From NCBI RefSeq assembly GCF_053078305.1, contig NZ_CP166879.1: a stretch of 64,000 nucleotides of DNA. One strand, given 5' to 3'. Numbering within the stretch: position 1 is the stretch's first letter; the number at the start of each line of letters is the position of its first letter. Positions 27,401 through 33,400 of the stretch are shown here, in pieces. The position numbers were made by a program.

Positions 27401-30400
27401 CAAACCGCGTTTGCGCGTAAACCTGACCACCAACTGGCAGCGTTACAGGAAAAAATCGCCGTTACGCCGCAACTGACATTCAATGGCGCAAAGATCCTTG
27501 AACTGGATGGTCGGCAACCAGCCGATGAAATTCTGCAAGCGTCACTACGCGCAATTCACGCCGCGCTTTCCTGATCACCAAAATGGATAGGGGATGATTT
27601 AACGAATGGATGCACTACAAACACAAACTGTTATTAGTACAACCGCGCCGCAGCCCAACTACATTCCGGGGCTGATTGCGGTGGTCGGGTGTGATGGCAC
27701 CGGTAAATCCACGCTGACCACCGACCTGGTGAAATCGCTGCAACAACACTGGCAAACCGAGCGCCGCTATTTGGGGCTGCTCTCCGGCGAAGACGGCGAC
27801 AAAATTAAACGATTGCCGTTGGTTGGCGTCTGGCTGGAACGGCGACTGGCGGCCAAATCCTCGAAAACCCAAAGCATGAAAACCAAATCTCCGGCGCTAT
27901 GGGCGGCGGTGATTATGTACTGCTTCTCGCTGCGAAGAATGGCGAATCTACGCAAGGTTCAGCGACTGGCGCAAAGTGGCGTTCTGGTGGTCAGCGATCG
28001 CTTCCCGCAGGCTGAAATTTCGGGCTTTTATTATGACGGACCGGGGATCGGCGTCGAACGTGCGACCGGGAAAATCAGCATGTTTCTGGCGCAGCGCGAA
28101 CGGCGTTTATACCAAAAAATGGCGCAATACCGTCCTGAATTAATCATTCGTTTGGGGATTGATATTGATACTGCCATCTCCCGCAAGCCTGACCATGACT
28201 ATGCCGAGCTGCAGGACAAAATCGGCGTCATGTCGACGATTGGCTATAACGGCACAAAAATTCTTGAGATTGATTCCAGAGCGCCCTACAGCGAAGTGCT
28301 GGAACAGGCACAGAAGGCGGTTTCTCTGGTTGCCATCGTTTCTGACCGCCGAAGTTTAACTTAAGGCTGGCGGGATACTTTTTACTATCAACGATAAGGT
28401 CAGGCTGAATTGGCGGGTTTTAACATCAAACATTGGTTTGCAGATGGCGCGTTTCGCACCATTATTCGCAATAGCGCCTGGTTAGGCTCCAGTAATGTCG
28501 TGAGCGCTTTGCTGGGGCTGTTGGCGCTCTCGTGTGCCGGTAAAGGGATGACGCCCGCCATGTTTGGCGTACTGGTGATTGTGCAATCGTACGCCAAGTC
28601 GATCAGCGATTTTATTAAGTTTCAGACATGGCAGCTGGTGGTTCAGTACGGAACACCAGCATTAACCAACAATAATCCGCAGCAATTTCGCAATGTCGTC
28701 TCATTTTCCTTCTCGCTGGATATCGTCAGCGGCGCGGTGGCGATTGTCGGCGGCATTGCCTTACTGCCATTCCTTTCCCATTCATTAGGTCTGGATGACC
28801 AAAGCTTTTGGCTGGCGGCGCTGTATTGCACGCTCATTCCTTCAATGGCTTCCTCCACGCCGACCGGCATTCTGCGTGCGGTAGATCGCTTTGATTTGAT
28901 TGCTGTACAGCAGGCGACGAAACCTTTTCTGCGCGCAGCGGGGAGCGTCGTAGCCTGGTATTTTGACTTTGGTTTTGCGGGTTTTGTTATTGCCTGGTAC
29001 GTGTCGAATCTGGTTGGCGGCACCATGTACTGGTGGTTTGCCGCGCGCGAATTACGCCGCAGAAATATCCATAACGCCTTCAAATTGAATCTGTTTGAGT
29101 CTGCCCGACACATTAAAGGCGCGTGGAGTTTTGTCTGGTCGACCAACATTGCCCACTCCATCTGGTCGGCACGTAACTCGTGCAGCACAGTGTTGGTGGG
29201 GATCGTGTTAGGACCCGCTGCCGCCGGGTTATTTAAAATCGCCATGACATTCTTCGACGCCGCCGGAACGCCAGCGGGTTTACTGGGTAAAAGTTTTTAC
29301 CCAGAGGTGATGCGTTTAGATCCGCGCACCACCAGACCGTGGTTGTTAGGCGTGAAGTCCGGTTTACTGGCGGGCGGAATCGGTATTCTGGTGGCGCTCG
29401 CGGTGTTGATCGTCGGCAAGCCGCTCATTTCGCTGGTGTTTGGCGTTAAGTATCTCGAAGCGTATGACCTGATTCAGGTGATGCTGGGCGCAATTGTGAT
29501 CTCGATGCTGGGCTTCCCTCAGGAGTCATTGCTATTGATGGCGGGAAAACAGCGCGCTTTTCTCGTGGCGCAAACCATCGCCTCAATCGGCTACATCGTA
29601 TTGCTGTTCATGTTCTGTCATCTGTTTGGCGTGCTGGGAGCAGCGTTTGCTTACTTCGGTGGGCAATGTCTGGACGTGGCGCTCTCGTTAATTCCAACCT
29701 TAAAGGCATTTTTTCAGCGCCATTCCTTGCTTTATAACGCAGCCGGAGAGAAATCCTGATGATGAGAAAATATTTCCCGCTTGAGGCGAGCGAGCGTCTA
29801 TTTGTTGCGATTGAAGAAGATGATGTCGTTGATGCACAGGTTAGTTTGCCGCCGACTATTGCACTAAGTTGTACCACCGAAATCATTCATGATAATTACG
29901 CGTTATGCCTGCAATTCTGGCTCAATGGCGTTGATCGTCAGGAATTACTTCGTTTAGTTCGCAAACAAGCCAAAGGCGATGAGCTGACTGCTGATGAGTG
30001 CAAACAATTTAAATACATGCGAGCGCGCTACAAGCACCTGCGTTTTGCGCAACGGCTGTATTTAAAGAAGCATCAGGCCGGATTTTTATTCGGCAAAACG
30101 ACCGTTTTTCTGGGACGTTTTCAGGACGGATTTCGTAACGGTAAGAAAAATATTGTGTCGTATTACGGCAACCTGTTACGAATTTATTTAAGCTCTCCGG
30201 TCTGGTCGTTGGTGAACTATTCATTACGCCATAGCCAGTTAGAAAGCGTAAGCGGTTTTATTGCCTATCGGCAAAAGCAAATGCATGCCCTGAAAGAGAT
30301 AATTGCCAAACCGCGACTAACCGGCAGGGAATTTCATGATGTGCGAAAAATCATCAGCCAGCAGGTTTCTTATTACGACACCTTAAGATCGCTTGATCCT

Positions 30401-33400
30401 GAAAATAAAGAGGCGTTACAGATTTCCCGTTTCCTCGCCGCCATTAATGGCCTGATGGGGGATAAACACGACGACATGGTGGCGGATGATATGGAAAACC
30501 GCCAGTCGTATGATGCACCGATGGCGCTGGATAGCGATATTCGCCAGCGCTTAGAGCTGCTGATTTCGCGTTTTCCGCTATAACCGGAGCAATGATGTCA
30601 TCTCGTTTGATTATTGCGCTGATTATCATGCTCTTAGCCCCGGGTGTGCAGGCACACAATTTCGTCACTGGCAAAACGGTTACCCCTGTTTATATTCAGG
30701 AAGGCGGCGAGCTGCTTCTGAATAGCGACGACGAAATTCACTACCAAAAGTGGAACAGCACACAATTGGCGGGAAAAGTCCGCATTATCCAGTATATCGC
30801 CGGGCGTAAGTCAGCGAAGAAGAAGAACTCACTATTAATTAAAGCGGTTGAAGCGGCAAACTTTCCGCAGGATCGTTTTCAGCCCACCACCATTGTGAAC
30901 ACCGATGATGCCATCTTTGGTACTGGCTATTTTGTTGTTGGCAAAATCGAAAAAAATAAACGCCGCTATCCGTGGGCGCAATTCGTTATCGACGGCAATG
31001 GACAGGGACGCGTTGCCTGGCGCTTGCCGGAGCAGAGTTCAACCATTCTGGTGCTGAATAAAGCCGGGCAAATTCAGTGGGCAAAGGACGGCAGCCTGAC
31101 GCCGGTAGAGGTAGATCATGTCATTGCGCTGGCGCAGAAACTGATCAATGAATAAAAAATTCAAAGGATTGAGGGCGTTAGTGAGATGAAGCTGGTTGAA
31201 CACTACATCATGCGTGGTACGCGCCGTCTGGTGCTGATTATCGTCGGTTTTCTGATCTTTATTTTCGCCAGCTACTCCGCACAGCGTTATCTGACCGAAG
31301 CGGCAAATGGGACATTAGCTCTTGATGTTGTGCTGGATATCGTTTTCTACAAAGTGCTGATTGCACTGGAGATGTTGTTACCTGTTGGTCTGTATGTGTC
31401 AGTTGGCGTGACGCTAGGGCAGATGTATACCGACTCGGAAATTACCGCTATCTCTGCGGCGGGGGGCAGTCCGGGACGCTTGTACAAAGCTGTTCTTTAT
31501 CTGGCGATACCGCTAAGTATTTTTGTCACCCTTCTGTCGATGTATGGTCGTCCGTGGGCTTATGCGCAGATTTATCAACTGGAGCAGCAGTCGCAGTCGG
31601 AGCTGGATGTTCGCCAGTTGCGGGCAAAGAAATTTAACACTAACGATAACGGACGAATGATCCTTTCGCAGACGGTTGATCAGGATAATAATCGCCTGAC
31701 TGACGCGCTGATTTATACTTCTACTGCCAATCGAACCCGCATTTTCCGCGCCCGTTCGGTTGATGTGGTTGACCCATCTCCCGAGAAACCGACCGTTATG
31801 TTGCACAACGGCACCGCCTATCTTCTCGATCATCAGGGGCGTGACGACAACGAACAGATCTACCGTAATCTGCAATTACATCTGAATCCGCTGGATCAAA
31901 GCCCTAACGTCAAACGCAAAGCAAAATCGGTCACGGAGCTGGCGCGCTCCGTCTTTCCGGCCGATCATGCCGAACTGCAATGGCGACAAAGCCGTGGCCT
32001 GACCGCATTGTTGATGGCGCTGCTGGCCATTTCATTAAGTCGGGTAAAACCGCGGCAAGGGCGATTTTCAACGTTATTGCCACTGACGTTGCTGTTTGTT
32101 GCCATTTTTTATGGCGGCGACGTCTGCCGTACGCTGGTGGCTAACGGCGCGATTCCCCTCATTCCTGGTTTGTGGTTAGTGCCCGGACTCATGCTAATGG
32201 GCCTGCTGATGCTGGTCGCACGCGACTTCTCTTTGCTGCAGAAATTTTCCCGATGAATGTTTTCAGTCGCTATTTAATCCGTCATCTCTTTCTCGGTTTT
32301 GCCGCCGCCGCAGGGTTATTGCTGCCGCTTTTTACTACCTTCAACCTGATTAACGAACTGGATGATGTCAGCCCGGGCGGTTATCGCTGGACTCAGGCGG
32401 TGCTGGTGGTGCTGATGACCTTACCGCGTACACTGGTCGAACTTTCGCCGTTTATCGCATTATTGGGAGGGATTGTTGGCCTGGGGCAGTTATCGAAAAA
32501 CAGTGAGCTTACCGCCATTCGCAGCACGGGGTTTTCTATCTTCCGTATTGCACTGGTGGCGCTGGTTGCCGGGATATTGTGGACTGTTTCGTTAGGCGCG
32601 ATAGATGAGTGGGTGGCGTCGCCATTGCAGCAACAGGCGCTGCAAATCAAATCGACCGCCACCGCGTTAGGGGAGGACGATGACATTACCGGCAATATGC
32701 TGTGGGCCAGGCGCGGCAATGAATTTGTGACGGTGAAATCGCTGAACGAGCAGGGCCAGCCGGTGGGCGTGGAGATATTTCATTATCGCGACGATCTCTC
32801 GCTCGAATCCTACATTTATGCACGCAGTGCCACCATTAAAGACGACAAAATGTGGATCCTGCATGGTGTGAATCATAAAAAATGGCTTAACGGTAAAGAA
32901 ACGCTGGACACATCAGATAATCTTGCCTGGCAATCGGCCTTCACCAGTATGGATCTTGAAGAGCTATCGATGCCGGGGAATACTTTTTCTGTCCGTCAGC
33001 TTAATCATTACATCCATTATTTGCAGGAAACCGGGCAACCCAGCAGCGAATACCGCCTTGCACTGTGGGAAAAACTGGGGCAACCCATCCTGACCCTGGC
33101 GATGATTTTGCTGGCTGTGCCGTTTACCTTTAGTGCCCCGCGCTCGCCAGGGATGGGTAGCCGTCTCGCTGTAGGTGTCATCGTTGGCTTACTCACCTGG
33201 ATCAGCTATCAAATCATGGTCAATCTGGGATTGCTATTTGCGTTAAGCGCACCTGTTACCGCGCTCGGTTTACCGATAGCGTTCGTGCTGGTGGCGTTGA
33301 GCCTGGTGTATTGGTATGACAGACAACATTAAACCCGCCGTGGCGCAACACCACGGCGGGCTCACATTACTGCTTCAGAGTAGCAAATGCCTGAATGATG

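What the first reader, a model, noticed from the sequence alone, without database searches (positions are those of the whole stretch)
28410..33332. Putative lipid export module adjacent to the biosynthetic operon: MOP flippase-like YghQ, unknown protein, YtfJ-like periplasmic protein and an LptF/LptG-like permease pair without a cognate ATPase
Convergent with the biosynthetic operon is a translationally coupled string: a multi-helix MOP-family membrane protein (YghQ), a 274-aa soluble protein, a signal-peptide YtfJ-like protein, and two paralogous permeases carrying the SE(I/L)TAI(R/S)… motif of the LptF/LptG family. Housekeeping LptFG partner the LptB ATPase to extract lipopolysaccharide; a second LptFG-like pair next to a lipid biosynthesis operon suggests a dedicated route to move a distinct lipid to the outer membrane. 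No ABC ATPase with an LSGGQ signature is encoded in the cluster.
Basis: inference. Interest (0 to 1): 0.75.

Follow-up and report, generated by a model that had tools for sequence, protein, structure and literature searches.

The report
E. coli sphingolipid export genes (LptF2/LptG2)
These five genes sit in the sphingolipid-making locus that about three quarters of E. coli strains carry, and they include a second LptF/LptG-type permease pair that most likely borrows the cell's normal LptB motor to send a ceramide-based lipid to the outer membrane; this idea was shown experimentally in Caulobacter in 2026 but has not been tested in E. coli.

Summary
Window 28410-33332 holds five tightly packed + strand genes:
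- a Wzx/MOP-type membrane protein (YghQ)
- a 274-aa soluble protein
- a YtfJ-family periplasmic protein
- an LptF-like and an LptG-like permease, joined by an ATGA overlap

No ABC ATPase signature occurs anywhere in the 64-kb window.

The convergent "AOS operon" is the biochemically characterised E. coli sphingolipid operon (aasR-cerR-acpR-spt, plus yghO/bCerS).

The permease pair never separates from spt. It lies within 10 kb in 43 of 43 testable loci from other species, and the locus is all-or-none in 5,426 E. coli genomes.

The pair keeps the LptB-docking glutamates and the jellyroll core. It replaces the LptG lysines that hold lipid A phosphates and inner core with acidic or neutral residues.

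New here:
- the 274-aa protein has a CHAD fold and is probably not an export part
- YghQ-ORF274-YtfJ2 is a separable block, and Pseudomonas has an MsbA-like ABC exporter instead
- a residue signature marks sphingolipid-type LptF2/G2

Verdict: real, a new member of a known kind, moderate interest.

The parts
28410..29759 (+). yghQ-like Wzx/MOP-type polytopic membrane protein (449 aa); candidate inner-membrane flippase for the sphingolipid or a precursor
   Evidence: Pfam PF01943 at 1.1e-8 and PF13440 at 1e-7. NCBIfam MOP flippase scores 33.8 bits, below its cut-off. At least 10 hydrophobic segments. It shares a Pfam/InterPro family (IPR002797) with Caulobacter CC_1166, the 'potential flippase'. 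dN/dS is 0.03. In K-12 the gene is truncated after about 1069 nt.
29759..30583 (+). ORF274: soluble all-alpha protein with a CHAD fold, a family of polyphosphate-binding modules; probably cytoplasmic and not an export component
30592..31155 (+). ytfJ2: secreted YtfJ_HI0045-family protein (RefSeq start 30595); paralogue of housekeeping YtfJ; role unknown
   Evidence: TIGR01626 scores 211 bits against a 151-bit cut-off. PF09695 at 5.9e-59. The signal peptide reads ...LLAPGVQA|HN, and the mature part has no Cys (sequence). It is 54% identical to K-12 YtfJ. No solved relative was found by sequence.
31186..32256 (+). lptF2: LptF-type permease (356 aa) with 3+3 TM segments and a central periplasmic domain of about 150 aa
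   Evidence: TIGR04407 scores 319 bits against a 230-bit cut-off, aligned end to end. It is 29% identical to K-12 LptF. PDB LptF chains match at E 1e-32 to 1e-20. Six hydrophobic segments. The coupling-helix residues Y80, E84, A90 and G92 and the residues R33, K317(R) and F149 are kept; K30, K322 and Q248 are changed.
32253..33332 (+). lptG2: LptG-type permease (359 aa); its ATG overlaps the lptF2 stop codon (ATGA)
   Evidence: TIGR04408 scores 306 bits against a 240-bit cut-off. It is 28% identical to K-12 LptG. E88, G96, W204, L206, Y257 and Y320 are kept. K34 becomes N/D/T, K40 becomes D/E, K41 becomes D, R133 becomes L/Q and I66 becomes D/N/E in 46 of 46 orthologues.
33330..33364 (.). 16-bp-stem GC-rich hairpin between the convergent lptG2 and spt stop codons; likely a bidirectional terminator
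   Evidence: Found by the terminator scan and seen in the sequence.
26861..28364 (+). yghS and yghR: upstream genes of the same probable operon; thymidylate-kinase-fold P-loop proteins, candidate head-group kinases
25995..26687 (-). yghT: third paralogous P-loop kinase-like gene, divergent from yghS
33367..37460 (-). Convergent sphingolipid biosynthesis operon: aasR (35730-37460; RefSeq start about 37418), cerR-like SDR (34819-35733), acpR (34539-34787), spt (33367-34539)
   Evidence: Spt matches NF047599 at 599 bits against a 500-bit cut-off, and the fatty acyl-AMP ligase matches NF006624 at 875 bits. The E. coli BL21 orthologues have been characterised (PMC9386255).
37815..38957 (+). yghO: homologue of the bacterial ceramide synthase (N-acyltransferase 'aca'/bCerS)
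   Evidence: It is listed as the E. coli orthologue of CC_1154 in PMC9386255, Fig. 9. It co-occurs with the locus.

Best explanation
The region is the transport half of the E. coli accessory sphingolipid locus.

Proposed pathway:
1. Ceramide is made on the cytoplasmic side by AasR, AcpR, Spt, YghO (bCerS) and the CerR-like reductase. This is shown for the first three E. coli enzymes and inferred for the rest.
2. The lipid, perhaps after head-group modification by the YghR/S/T kinase-like proteins, is flipped across the inner membrane by the Wzx/MOP-type protein YghQ. This step is inferred; YghQ would play the role MsbA plays for LPS.
3. LptF2 and LptG2 form a heterodimeric permease. It has no ATPase of its own and docks onto the housekeeping LptB dimer through its conserved coupling helices.
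4. [quoted passage not shown] This is inferred for E. coli. In Caulobacter, genetics and co-purification have shown complex formation with LptB and synthesis-dependent essentiality.

The substrate cavity is remodelled. It keeps four basic residues (LptF R33 and K317R; LptG K62R and R136K). It replaces the LptG TM1 lysines that bind the lipid A phosphates and inner core with acidic or neutral residues. This argues that the cargo is not LPS.

ORF274 (CHAD fold, cytoplasmic) and YtfJ2 (periplasmic YtfJ paralogue) are lineage-specific accessories of unknown role. ORF274 more plausibly belongs with phosphate or head-group chemistry than with export.
For: 1. Family assignment of the pair is above NCBI equivalog cut-offs and runs full length. 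The topology is 3+3 TM segments with a central periplasmic domain.
2. The pair is linked to spt. LptG2 follows LptF2 in 48 of 48 loci, and spt/acpR/cerR/aasR lie within 10 kb in 43 of 43 untruncated cases across Enterobacterales, Pseudomonas and a distant gammaproteobacterial MAG, despite rearranged gene order. The locus is all-or-none in E. coli: 4091, 4067 and 4051 of 5426 genomes.
3. There is no ABC ATPase signature in the 64-kb window.
4. The LptB-docking features are kept. The coupling-helix consensus and the glutamates equivalent to LptF E84 (48/48) and LptG E88 (45/46) are conserved. Their role in binding LptB is documented in PMC5082905.
5. The LPS-contact residues defined by cryo-EM (PMC6744409) are selectively changed. 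LptG K34 becomes N/D/T, K40 becomes D/E, K41 becomes D and R133 becomes L/Q; LptF K322 becomes N. LptF R33 and K317(R), LptG K62(R) and R136(K), and the jellyroll core residues are kept. The same signature is seen in the Pseudomonas and L045 copies.
6. Purifying selection acts on all five genes, with dN/dS of 0.03-0.14.
7. There is experimental precedent in Caulobacter. lptF2/lptG2 can be deleted only in spt or cpgB mutants, and LptF2 and LptG2 co-purify with each other and with LptB. The same preprint draws the E. coli UTI89 locus with homologous genes. An earlier proposal covered CC_1155/1156 and the flippase CC_1166.
8. The flippase slot is filled by a non-homologous MsbA-like ABC exporter in the Pseudomonas locus and by a MOP protein inside the spt operon in L045.
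Against: - No experiment has been done in E. coli. To my knowledge no sphingolipid has been reported in E. coli lipid extracts, so the locus may be silent under laboratory conditions.
- Binding of LptB is inferred only from conserved coupling helices. No complex model was run.
- Orthology to Caulobacter CCNA_01213/01214 was not tested directly, because no Caulobacter sequence was available here. The only link is the distant locus L045 (147 versus 104 bits for F; 152 versus 137 bits for G).
- YghQ's family match is weak (33.8 bits against a 273-bit cut-off). MOP proteins normally flip undecaprenyl-linked glycans, not ceramides.
- The acidic LptG2 rim is hard to reconcile with a strongly anionic cargo such as Caulobacter CPG2, yet it is also present in loci that carry CPG-type genes. 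The meaning of the signature is therefore uncertain.
- The downstream route (LptC, LptA, LptDE) is unknown.
Confidence: 0.7

Rival explanations
1. LptF2/LptG2 are spare or condition-specific LPS permeases. They would transport ordinary or modified LPS with LptB, and their position next to the spt operon would be incidental.
For: They score above the NCBIfam 'equivalog' cut-offs for LptF and LptG, and PGAP names them so. The coupling helices, the jellyroll core and four basic cavity residues are conserved.
Against: They are only 28-29% identical to the housekeeping pair. LptG K34, K40, K41 and R133 are replaced, often by acidic residues, and K34E is lethal in the LPS transporter. They are never found away from spt in 43 of 43 testable loci. 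They are lost together with spt in K-12-type genomes. In Caulobacter the paralogues are needed only when anionic sphingolipid is made.
Confidence: 0.07
2. The pair is a genuine sphingolipid extractor but is powered by a different, unlinked ATPase rather than the housekeeping LptB. Alternatively it acts without ATP as a passive scramblase or receptor.
For: No ATPase is encoded in the locus or the window. E. coli has many orphan ABC ATPases (general knowledge). LptB binding has not been tested in E. coli.
Against: The coupling-helix consensus and the glutamates that dock into the LptB groove are strictly kept. In Caulobacter both proteins co-purify with the only LptB. No ATPase gene co-migrates with the pair in any of the 48 loci; the only ABC protein seen is a full MsbA-like half-transporter with its own membrane domain in Pseudomonas.
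Confidence: 0.1
3. The five genes are not one export module. YghQ, ORF274 and YtfJ2 would serve head-group assembly. For example, YghQ would flip an undecaprenyl-linked or other polar donor for periplasmic decoration of ceramide, and ORF274 would work with the YghR/S/T kinases. Only LptF2G2 would transport the lipid. This partly overlaps the best explanation.
For: The yghQ-orf274-ytfJ2 block is inverted relative to lptF2G2 in about a dozen genera and is missing within 10 kb in Pseudomonas, Rahnella and Pantoea coffeiphila. MOP/Wzx proteins classically flip polyprenyl-linked glycans (general knowledge). ORF274 has a phosphate-polymer-binding fold, and family members are fused to an APH-type kinase. 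The block sits directly after the kinase-like genes.
Against: There is no glycosyltransferase or polyprenyl-phosphate transferase in the E. coli locus. Pseudomonas has an MsbA-like lipid exporter at the equivalent place, which fits a lipid-flipping slot. The Caulobacter CC_1166 mutant shows cofitness with the lptF2 (CC_1156) mutant.
Confidence: 0.15
4. The locus is an evolutionary remnant or is silent in E. coli, with no current function.
For: To my knowledge no sphingolipid has been described in E. coli. K-12 and about 25% of strains lack the locus without obvious harm. Scattered truncated or fused ORFs exist in databases.
Against: dN/dS is 0.03-0.14 for every gene. Intact ORFs sit in thousands of genomes and in more than 20 genera with conserved content. 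The E. coli Spt, AcpR and AasR enzymes are active.
Confidence: 0.05

Closest known systems
Caulobacter crescentus LptF2/LptG2 (CCNA_01214/CCNA_01213 = CC_1156/CC_1155), sphingolipid-locus paralogues of LptFG
   Same: A second LptF/LptG pair is encoded inside the spt/ceramide locus. No lptB copy accompanies it. The coupling helices are kept. The proposed job is extraction of sphingolipid from the inner membrane using the housekeeping LptB. The E. coli UTI89 locus is drawn beside it in Fig. 2B of the preprint.
   Different: The E. coli pair is untested. The E. coli locus lacks the Caulobacter head-group genes (cpgA/B/C-type, CC_1152/1153/1158) and LptC2. Instead it carries three thymidylate-kinase-fold proteins, a CHAD-fold protein and a YtfJ paralogue. 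The exported lipid is therefore probably different. Direct sequence orthology was not tested here.
E. coli LptB2FGC lipopolysaccharide extractor (housekeeping LptF b4261 and LptG b4262)
   Same: Same protein families at full length. Same 3+3 TM plus beta-jellyroll architecture. Same overlapping F-G gene pair. Conserved coupling-helix glutamates and jellyroll core residues.
   Different: Only 28-29% identical. The LptG lysines K34, K40 and K41 and R133, and LptF K30 and K322, which contact the lipid A phosphates or inner core, are replaced. The LptF R212 loop is not conserved. The pair is accessory rather than universal in E. coli and is linked to spt rather than to pepA.
Caulobacter CC_1166 (CCNA_01224) putative sphingolipid flippase; Wzx/MOP family in general
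   Same: YghQ has the same Pfam/InterPro family (PF01943/IPR002797) and lies in a sphingolipid locus. A 25%-identical MOP protein lies inside the spt operon of L045.
   Different: Neither protein has a demonstrated substrate. Characterised MOP flippases move polyprenyl-linked glycans or lipid II. YghQ scores far below the NCBIfam family cut-off.
CHAD domains (Ricinus communis CHAD 6qv5; Streptomyces PptA 6rn5; Chlorobium 3e0s)
   Different: There is no Pfam CHAD match, even at E up to 10. It is not fused to a CYTH domain. Polyphosphate binding is untested. It is a distinct subfamily whose named AFDB members come from Sphingomonadaceae, Acetobacteraceae, Pseudomonas and Enterobacterales.
MsbA (lipid A-core flippase)
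   Same: It is the functional analogue of the step proposed for YghQ. An MsbA-like ABC half-transporter occupies the corresponding place in the Pseudomonas sphingolipid locus.
   Different: YghQ is not an ABC protein and has no nucleotide-binding domain.

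Membership tests
LptF/LptG permease family (PF03739; TIGR04407 LptF, TIGR04408 LptG) | Full-length match to the family models above the curated cut-off | tested here: met
   LptF2 scores 319 bits against a 230-bit cut-off, covering model positions 2-346 of 347. LptG2 scores 306 bits against 240, covering 2-350 of 351. PF03739 is precomputed on the orthologues.
LptF/LptG permease family (PF03739; TIGR04407 LptF, TIGR04408 LptG) | Six TM helices with a periplasmic beta-jellyroll between TM3 and TM4 | tested here: met
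   The hydropathy pattern is 3+3 with a gap of about 150 residues. The jellyroll core residues F149, W204, L206, Y257 and Y271 are conserved. No 3D model of these two proteins was built.
LptF/LptG permease family (PF03739; TIGR04407 LptF, TIGR04408 LptG) | Coupling helix of consensus Phi----EPhi-PhiPhi---G with the conserved glutamate that docks into LptB | tested here: met
   The helices read YTDSEITAISAAG and LSKNSELTAIRSTG. The Glu is kept in 48/48 and 45/46 orthologues. The consensus comes from PMC5082905.
LptF/LptG permease family (PF03739; TIGR04407 LptF, TIGR04408 LptG) | Basic residues that bind the lipid A 1'- and 4'-phosphates and the inner core (LptG K34, K40, K41, K62, R133, R136; LptF R33, K317, K322) | tested here: not met
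   Only LptF R33 and K317(R) and LptG K62(R/K) and R136(K/R) are kept. K34 becomes N/D/T, K40 becomes D/E, K41 becomes D, R133 becomes L/Q and K322 becomes N. The pair therefore belongs to the protein family but probably is not an LPS transporter.
LptF/LptG permease family (PF03739; TIGR04407 LptF, TIGR04408 LptG) | Forms an LptB2FG complex and transports LPS | not testable with these tools
   This needs pull-downs, or complementation of an lptFG depletion.
Sphingolipid-type LptF2/LptG2 (Caulobacter model) | Encoded within or next to the spt/ceramide synthesis locus | tested here: met
   The pair is convergent with spt, 35 nt apart. It is linked to spt in 43 of 43 untruncated loci.
Sphingolipid-type LptF2/LptG2 (Caulobacter model) | No dedicated lptB copy | tested here: met
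   No LSGGQ/E motif occurs in 64 kb. The rest of the genome is not visible from the window.
Sphingolipid-type LptF2/LptG2 (Caulobacter model) | Sequence orthology to CCNA_01214/CCNA_01213 | not tested
Indirect evidence: the pair in L045, a locus with Caulobacter-like head-group genes, is closer to EcLptF2/G2 than to EcLptF/G and shares the residue signature.
Sphingolipid-type LptF2/LptG2 (Caulobacter model) | Essential only when the sphingolipid is made; co-purifies with LptB | not testable with these tools
   This has been shown only in Caulobacter.
MOP (Wzx/MurJ/MATE) flippase superfamily - YghQ | Match to the Polysacc_synt / MOP models and a polytopic 12-14 TM topology | tested here: inconclusive
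   PF01943 at 1.1e-8 and PF13440 at 1e-7. NF007773 scores 33.8 bits against a 273-bit cut-off. About 10 hydrophobic peaks appear by a crude hydropathy scan. No structure was predicted and there is no PDB relative by sequence.
YtfJ_HI0045 family - YtfJ2 | Match to TIGR01626/PF09695 above the cut-off, plus a signal peptide | tested here: met
   211 bits against a 151-bit cut-off. 5.9e-59. 54% identical to K-12 YtfJ.
CHAD domain - ORF274 | Sequence match to Pfam PF05235 | tested here: not met
   No Pfam hit at E up to 10. Only a 'faint' CHAD flag appears, on a distant fused relative.
CHAD domain - ORF274 | CHAD helical-bundle fold with conserved His and basic residues | tested here: met
   [not shown]
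ABC transporter ATPase (LptB-like) in the cluster | Walker A plus the LSGGQ signature | tested here: not met
   No LSGGQ/E motif occurs in any frame of the window. The Walker A motifs belong to the thymidylate-kinase-fold YghR/S/T and to one distant ORF.

The most novel reading that the evidence does not exclude
The Enterobacterales version of the locus may make and export a sphingolipid with a head group unlike Caulobacter's CPG2. The head group would be built by the three thymidylate-kinase-fold proteins YghR/S/T together with the CHAD-fold protein ORF274. The lipid would be flipped by YghQ and then recognised by an LptF2G2 cavity whose LptG rim has switched from lysines to acidic residues. 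YtfJ2, rather than an LptC2, would act as the periplasmic partner. Most natural E. coli would then carry an undescribed outer-membrane lipid and a second cargo for the Lpt bridge.
Probability: 0.2. Interest if true: 0.75.

Novelty: new member of a known kind. Interest (0 to 1): 0.45.

Why it matters
The Lpt pathway is an antibiotic target and is considered dedicated to LPS.

If E. coli LptB also powers a second permease pair for a ceramide-based lipid, three things follow:
- LptB and possibly the LptC/A/DE bridge have two cargos in about 75% of E. coli strains.
- The best-developed genetic and structural system for Lpt becomes available to study how bacterial sphingolipids reach the outer membrane. 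That question was called 'a mystery' as recently as 2026.
- K-12, which has lost the locus to an IS5-associated deletion, is an incomplete model of the E. coli envelope.

The residue signature found here (LptG K34/K40/K41 lost; LptF R33 and K317 and LptG K62 and R136 kept) gives a simple way to tell sphingolipid-type LptFG from LPS-type LptFG in genome annotation. At present annotation labels both 'LPS export permease'.

Tried and rejected
- **YghR/S/T as homologues of the Caulobacter ceramide kinase CpgB.** Rejected. CpgB is a DAG-kinase-like enzyme with a GGDG motif, whereas YghR has a thymidylate-kinase fold.
- **ORF274 as the counterpart of Caulobacter CC_1167 or CC_1161.** Rejected. CC_1167 is a CDP-glycerol glycerophosphotransferase-like protein and CC_1161 is Tam41-like.
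- **The unannotated 285-aa and 321-aa ORFs of the Pseudomonas locus, and the 287-aa and 296-aa ORFs of L045, as ORF274 relatives.** hhalign gives probability below 1%.
- **Genomic context of distant ORF274-family members**. The contigs were short and showed no spt neighbours, so this was uninformative beyond the taxonomic pattern.
- **Sequence searches of the PDB for ORF274, YtfJ2, YghQ and YghR.** Nothing significant.
- **Anti-phage defence models (PADLOC).** No meaningful hit.
- **Promoter scan.** The count does not differ from shuffled sequence, so it was not used.
- **Literature searches for yghQ, yghO and YtfJ.** They gave no functional study of these genes. A search for E. coli UTI89 plus sphingolipid terms found nothing.
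- **LptF R212 as a natural 'LptC-independent' state.** The position falls in a gapped loop and the alignment is unreliable, so no conclusion was drawn.

Full report
**1. What is in the sequence**

The window is an E. coli chromosome segment running gss-pitB-yghT-yghS-yghR-yghQ...yghO-glcC. RefSeq annotates the same five in a 99.6%-identical genome.

The junctions, read directly from the sequence, are:
- the yghQ stop and the ORF274 start share one base (TGATG)
- 8-11 nt separate ORF274 from ytfJ2, with a GGAG before the start
- 30 nt separate ytfJ2 from lptF2
- lptF2 and lptG2 overlap in ATGA

The lptG-like gene therefore starts at 32253 (359 aa), not at the upstream GTG that the ORF list reports. 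yghS and yghR lie just upstream on the same strand with gaps of 31 and 45 nt, so the transcription unit is probably yghS-yghR-yghQ-orf274-ytfJ2-lptF2-lptG2. A 16-bp-stem hairpin (33330-33364) separates the lptG2 stop from the stop of the convergent spt gene.

**2. Family assignments**

- LptF2 and LptG2 match the NCBI LptF and LptG equivalog models end to end and above cut-off: 319 bits against 230, and 306 bits against 240.
- They match solved LptF chains from Pseudomonas, Vibrio, Shigella/E. coli, Klebsiella and Enterobacter.
- They are only 29% and 28% identical to K-12 LptF and LptG.
- Each has three hydrophobic segments, then a polar stretch of about 150 residues, then three more. This is the LptF/G topology.
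- YtfJ2 is a clear YtfJ_HI0045 member with a signal peptide. It is 54% identical to the housekeeping YtfJ of K-12 and has no cysteine in the mature part.
- YghQ matches the Wzx-type Polysacc_synt families weakly (PF01943 at 1.1e-8). It is far below the NCBIfam MOP cut-off. It has at least ten hydrophobic segments.
- ORF274 has no Pfam or NCBIfam match.
- No LSGGQ/LSGGE motif exists in any frame of the 64-kb window.

**3. The neighbouring operon makes sphingolipid**

The operon is aasR (fatty acyl-AMP ligase), a CerR-like SDR, acpR and spt, with yghO beyond it. The E. coli BL21 versions of AasR, AcpR and Spt have been characterised biochemically. The five ceramide genes, including yghO as the N-acyltransferase, are described as clustered in E. 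coli BL21 (PMC9386255).

**4.

Within 5,426 complete E. coli genomes:
- the export half is present at 80% coverage or more in 4091
- the biosynthetic half in 4067
- the whole yghT-to-yghO 13-kb stretch in 4051

K-12-type genomes have lost everything from mid-yghQ to yghO, with an IS5 at the site.

LptF2 orthologues of 55-77% identity occur in more than 20 genera of Enterobacterales and in Pseudomonas. In the 48 loci fetched from species-representative genomes:
- LptG2 follows LptF2 in all 48
- spt, acpR, cerR and aasR lie within 10 kb in 43
- the other five loci are cut short on the side where the spt operon lies in their relatives

Gene order around the pair is rearranged between genera, yet the gene content stays the same. 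That is better evidence of functional linkage than simple synteny. A distant gammaproteobacterial MAG (L045; LptF2 34%, Spt 51%) shows the same association. All five genes are under strong purifying selection, with dN/dS of 0.03-0.14 against other Escherichia species.

**5. What the permease sequences say about mechanism**

The coupling helices, whose glutamates LptF E84 and LptG E88 dock into the LptB groove (PMC5082905), are the best-conserved part of the proteins. The Glu is kept in 48/48 and 45/46 orthologues, along with Y80, A90, G92 and G96. The jellyroll core residues LptF F149 and LptG W204, L206, Y257, Y271 and Y320 are also kept. This fits hand-over to a periplasmic Lpt-type bridge.

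The residues that cryo-EM shows in contact with LPS (PMC6744409) are selectively changed.

| LPS contact in housekeeping LptFG | Residues kept in LptF2/G2 | Residues changed in LptF2/G2 |
|---|---|---|
| 1'-phosphate site | LptF R33; LptG K62 (R/K); LptG R136 (K/R) | LptG K34 becomes N/D/T; LptG R133 becomes L/Q |
| 4'-phosphate site | LptF K317 (as R) | LptG K40 becomes D/E in 46/46 |
| Inner core | none | LptG K41 becomes D; LptF K322 becomes N |
| Acyl chains | not applicable | LptG I66 becomes acidic or amide |

K34E alone is lethal in the LPS transporter.

The same signature is present in the Pseudomonas and L045 copies. L045's proteins are closer to E. coli LptF2/G2 than to E. coli LptF/G. 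I read this as a distinct, probably ancient, sphingolipid-type subclass of LptFG with a remodelled head-group pocket. What the acidic rim recognises is unknown.

**6. The other three genes**

Foldseek against AFDB finds full-length relatives (TM 0.9 or higher, 26-42% identity) in Sphingomonas, Zymomonas, Acetobacter, Komagataeibacter, Gluconobacter, Commensalibacter and Pseudomonas veronii. Several of these genera are listed as carrying rhodobacterial-type spt. The family is small, with 340 representative clusters. One member is fused to an APH-type kinase domain. Contexts of distant members were uninformative. ORF274 is therefore a cytoplasmic, probably phosphate-ligand-binding protein. I see no basis for calling it an export component.

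*YghQ.* It shares its Pfam/InterPro family with Caulobacter CC_1166, which the Geiger laboratory proposed as the sphingolipid flippase. In L045 a MOP protein sits inside the spt operon. In Pseudomonas marginalis the locus has no MOP protein but instead has an MsbA-like ABC half-transporter. This non-homologous replacement supports a "flippase slot" in these loci.

*The yghQ-orf274-ytfJ2 block.* The three genes move as one block. It is inverted relative to lptF2G2 in about a dozen loci and was not found within 10 kb in Pseudomonas, Rahnella and Pantoea coffeiphila. It is therefore separable from the permease pair.

*YtfJ2.* Its role remains open. In L045 the gene next to lptF2 encodes an LptA/LptC-like protein instead.

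**7. Comparison with what is known**

The idea is already in the literature.
- PMC11324152 (2024) labelled CC_1155, CC_1156 and CC_1168 as LptG2, LptF2 and LptC2, and CC_1166 as a potential flippase. It proposed a dedicated sphingolipid route.
- The April 2026 preprint of Uchendu, Isom and Klein showed three things in Caulobacter. lptF2, lptG2 and lptC2 can be deleted only in spt or cpgB mutants. LptF2 and LptG2 co-purify. Both also co-purify with the single LptB.
- That preprint draws the E. coli UTI89 locus with the homologous genes and states that lptF2/lptG2 occur in many alpha- and gammaproteobacterial sphingolipid loci.

The E. coli genes themselves have not been studied. My searches for yghQ, yghO and YtfJ found no functional work.

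The E. coli locus differs from the Caulobacter one in three ways:
- it lacks the CPG head-group genes and LptC2
- it carries three thymidylate-kinase-fold proteins
- it carries the CHAD-fold protein and YtfJ2

**8. Verdict**

The finding is real, and its main interpretation is supported by independent comparative evidence and by published experiments on the homologous system. It is a new, uncharacterised member of a recently established kind, not a new kind.

The parts that go beyond the literature are:
- the residue signature
- the CHAD assignment of ORF274
- the modular behaviour of yghQ-orf274-ytfJ2
- the MsbA-like replacement in Pseudomonas
- an LptA/C-like gene next to lptF2 outside Caulobacter

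The chief uncertainty is whether, and when, E. coli expresses the locus, and what lipid it makes.

Noticed in passing
window 22861-24156: The gss gene (glutathionylspermidine synthetase/amidase) carries an in-frame internal deletion. Residues 1-229 and 416-619 of the 619-aa protein of strain ET350 are present, and about 189 residues of the synthetase part are missing.
   Followed up: partly
window 28410-38957 versus K-12-type genomes (hits H59, H60): K-12-type genomes retain only the first ~1069 nt of yghQ and the 3' part of yghO, with an IS5 element between them. The laboratory strain has therefore lost the whole export module and the spt operon in one event.
   Followed up: partly
L045:9382-10005 (- strand): In a distant gammaproteobacterial MAG with Caulobacter-like head-group genes, the ORF next to lptF2 matches the LptA model TIGR03002 at 47 bits, below the 71.7-bit cut-off. 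An LptC2/LptA-like partner may therefore not be confined to Caulobacter, contrary to a remark in the 2026 preprint.
   Followed up: partly
L025:1769-3799 (- strand), L025:12159-13133, L025:14131-14889: The Pseudomonas marginalis sphingolipid locus has an MsbA-like ABC half-transporter where Enterobacterales have the MOP protein. It also has a YegS/DAG-kinase-like lipid kinase and an OlsC/LpxO-like hydroxylase after lptG2.
   Followed up: partly
[not shown]
   Followed up: partly
window 30592-32256; proteins P0002, P0003, P0006, P0011-P0013: Public databases hold single-member E. coli ORFs of 493-553 aa that fuse YtfJ2 (PF09695) to LptF2 (PF03739). These are probably stop-codon losses or assembly errors, since the fusion would invert the LptF2 topology.
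   Followed up: no
protein P0346 (loci L052, L053): A 976-aa protein from an unidentified bacterium joins an APH-type kinase domain (PF01636) to an ORF274-family/CHAD-like domain. This hints that the family works with phosphotransferases.
   Followed up: no
window 34819-35733 (- strand): The E. coli CerR-like reductase begins directly with its Rossmann GxxGxxG motif and shows no signal peptide, whereas Caulobacter CerR is reported to be periplasmic (PMC11087976).
   Followed up: no
window 29500-31000: G+C drops to about 0.465 over ORF274 and ytfJ2, against 0.51-0.54 in the flanking genes. These two genes also have the highest dN/dS of the set.
   Followed up: no
window ~58904: The only other Walker A motif in a long ORF of the window (GPTGSGKS, in a 503-codon open frame) lies far from the locus. 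From its position it is probably the type II secretion ATPase of the neighbouring gsp cluster. This was not checked.
   Followed up: no
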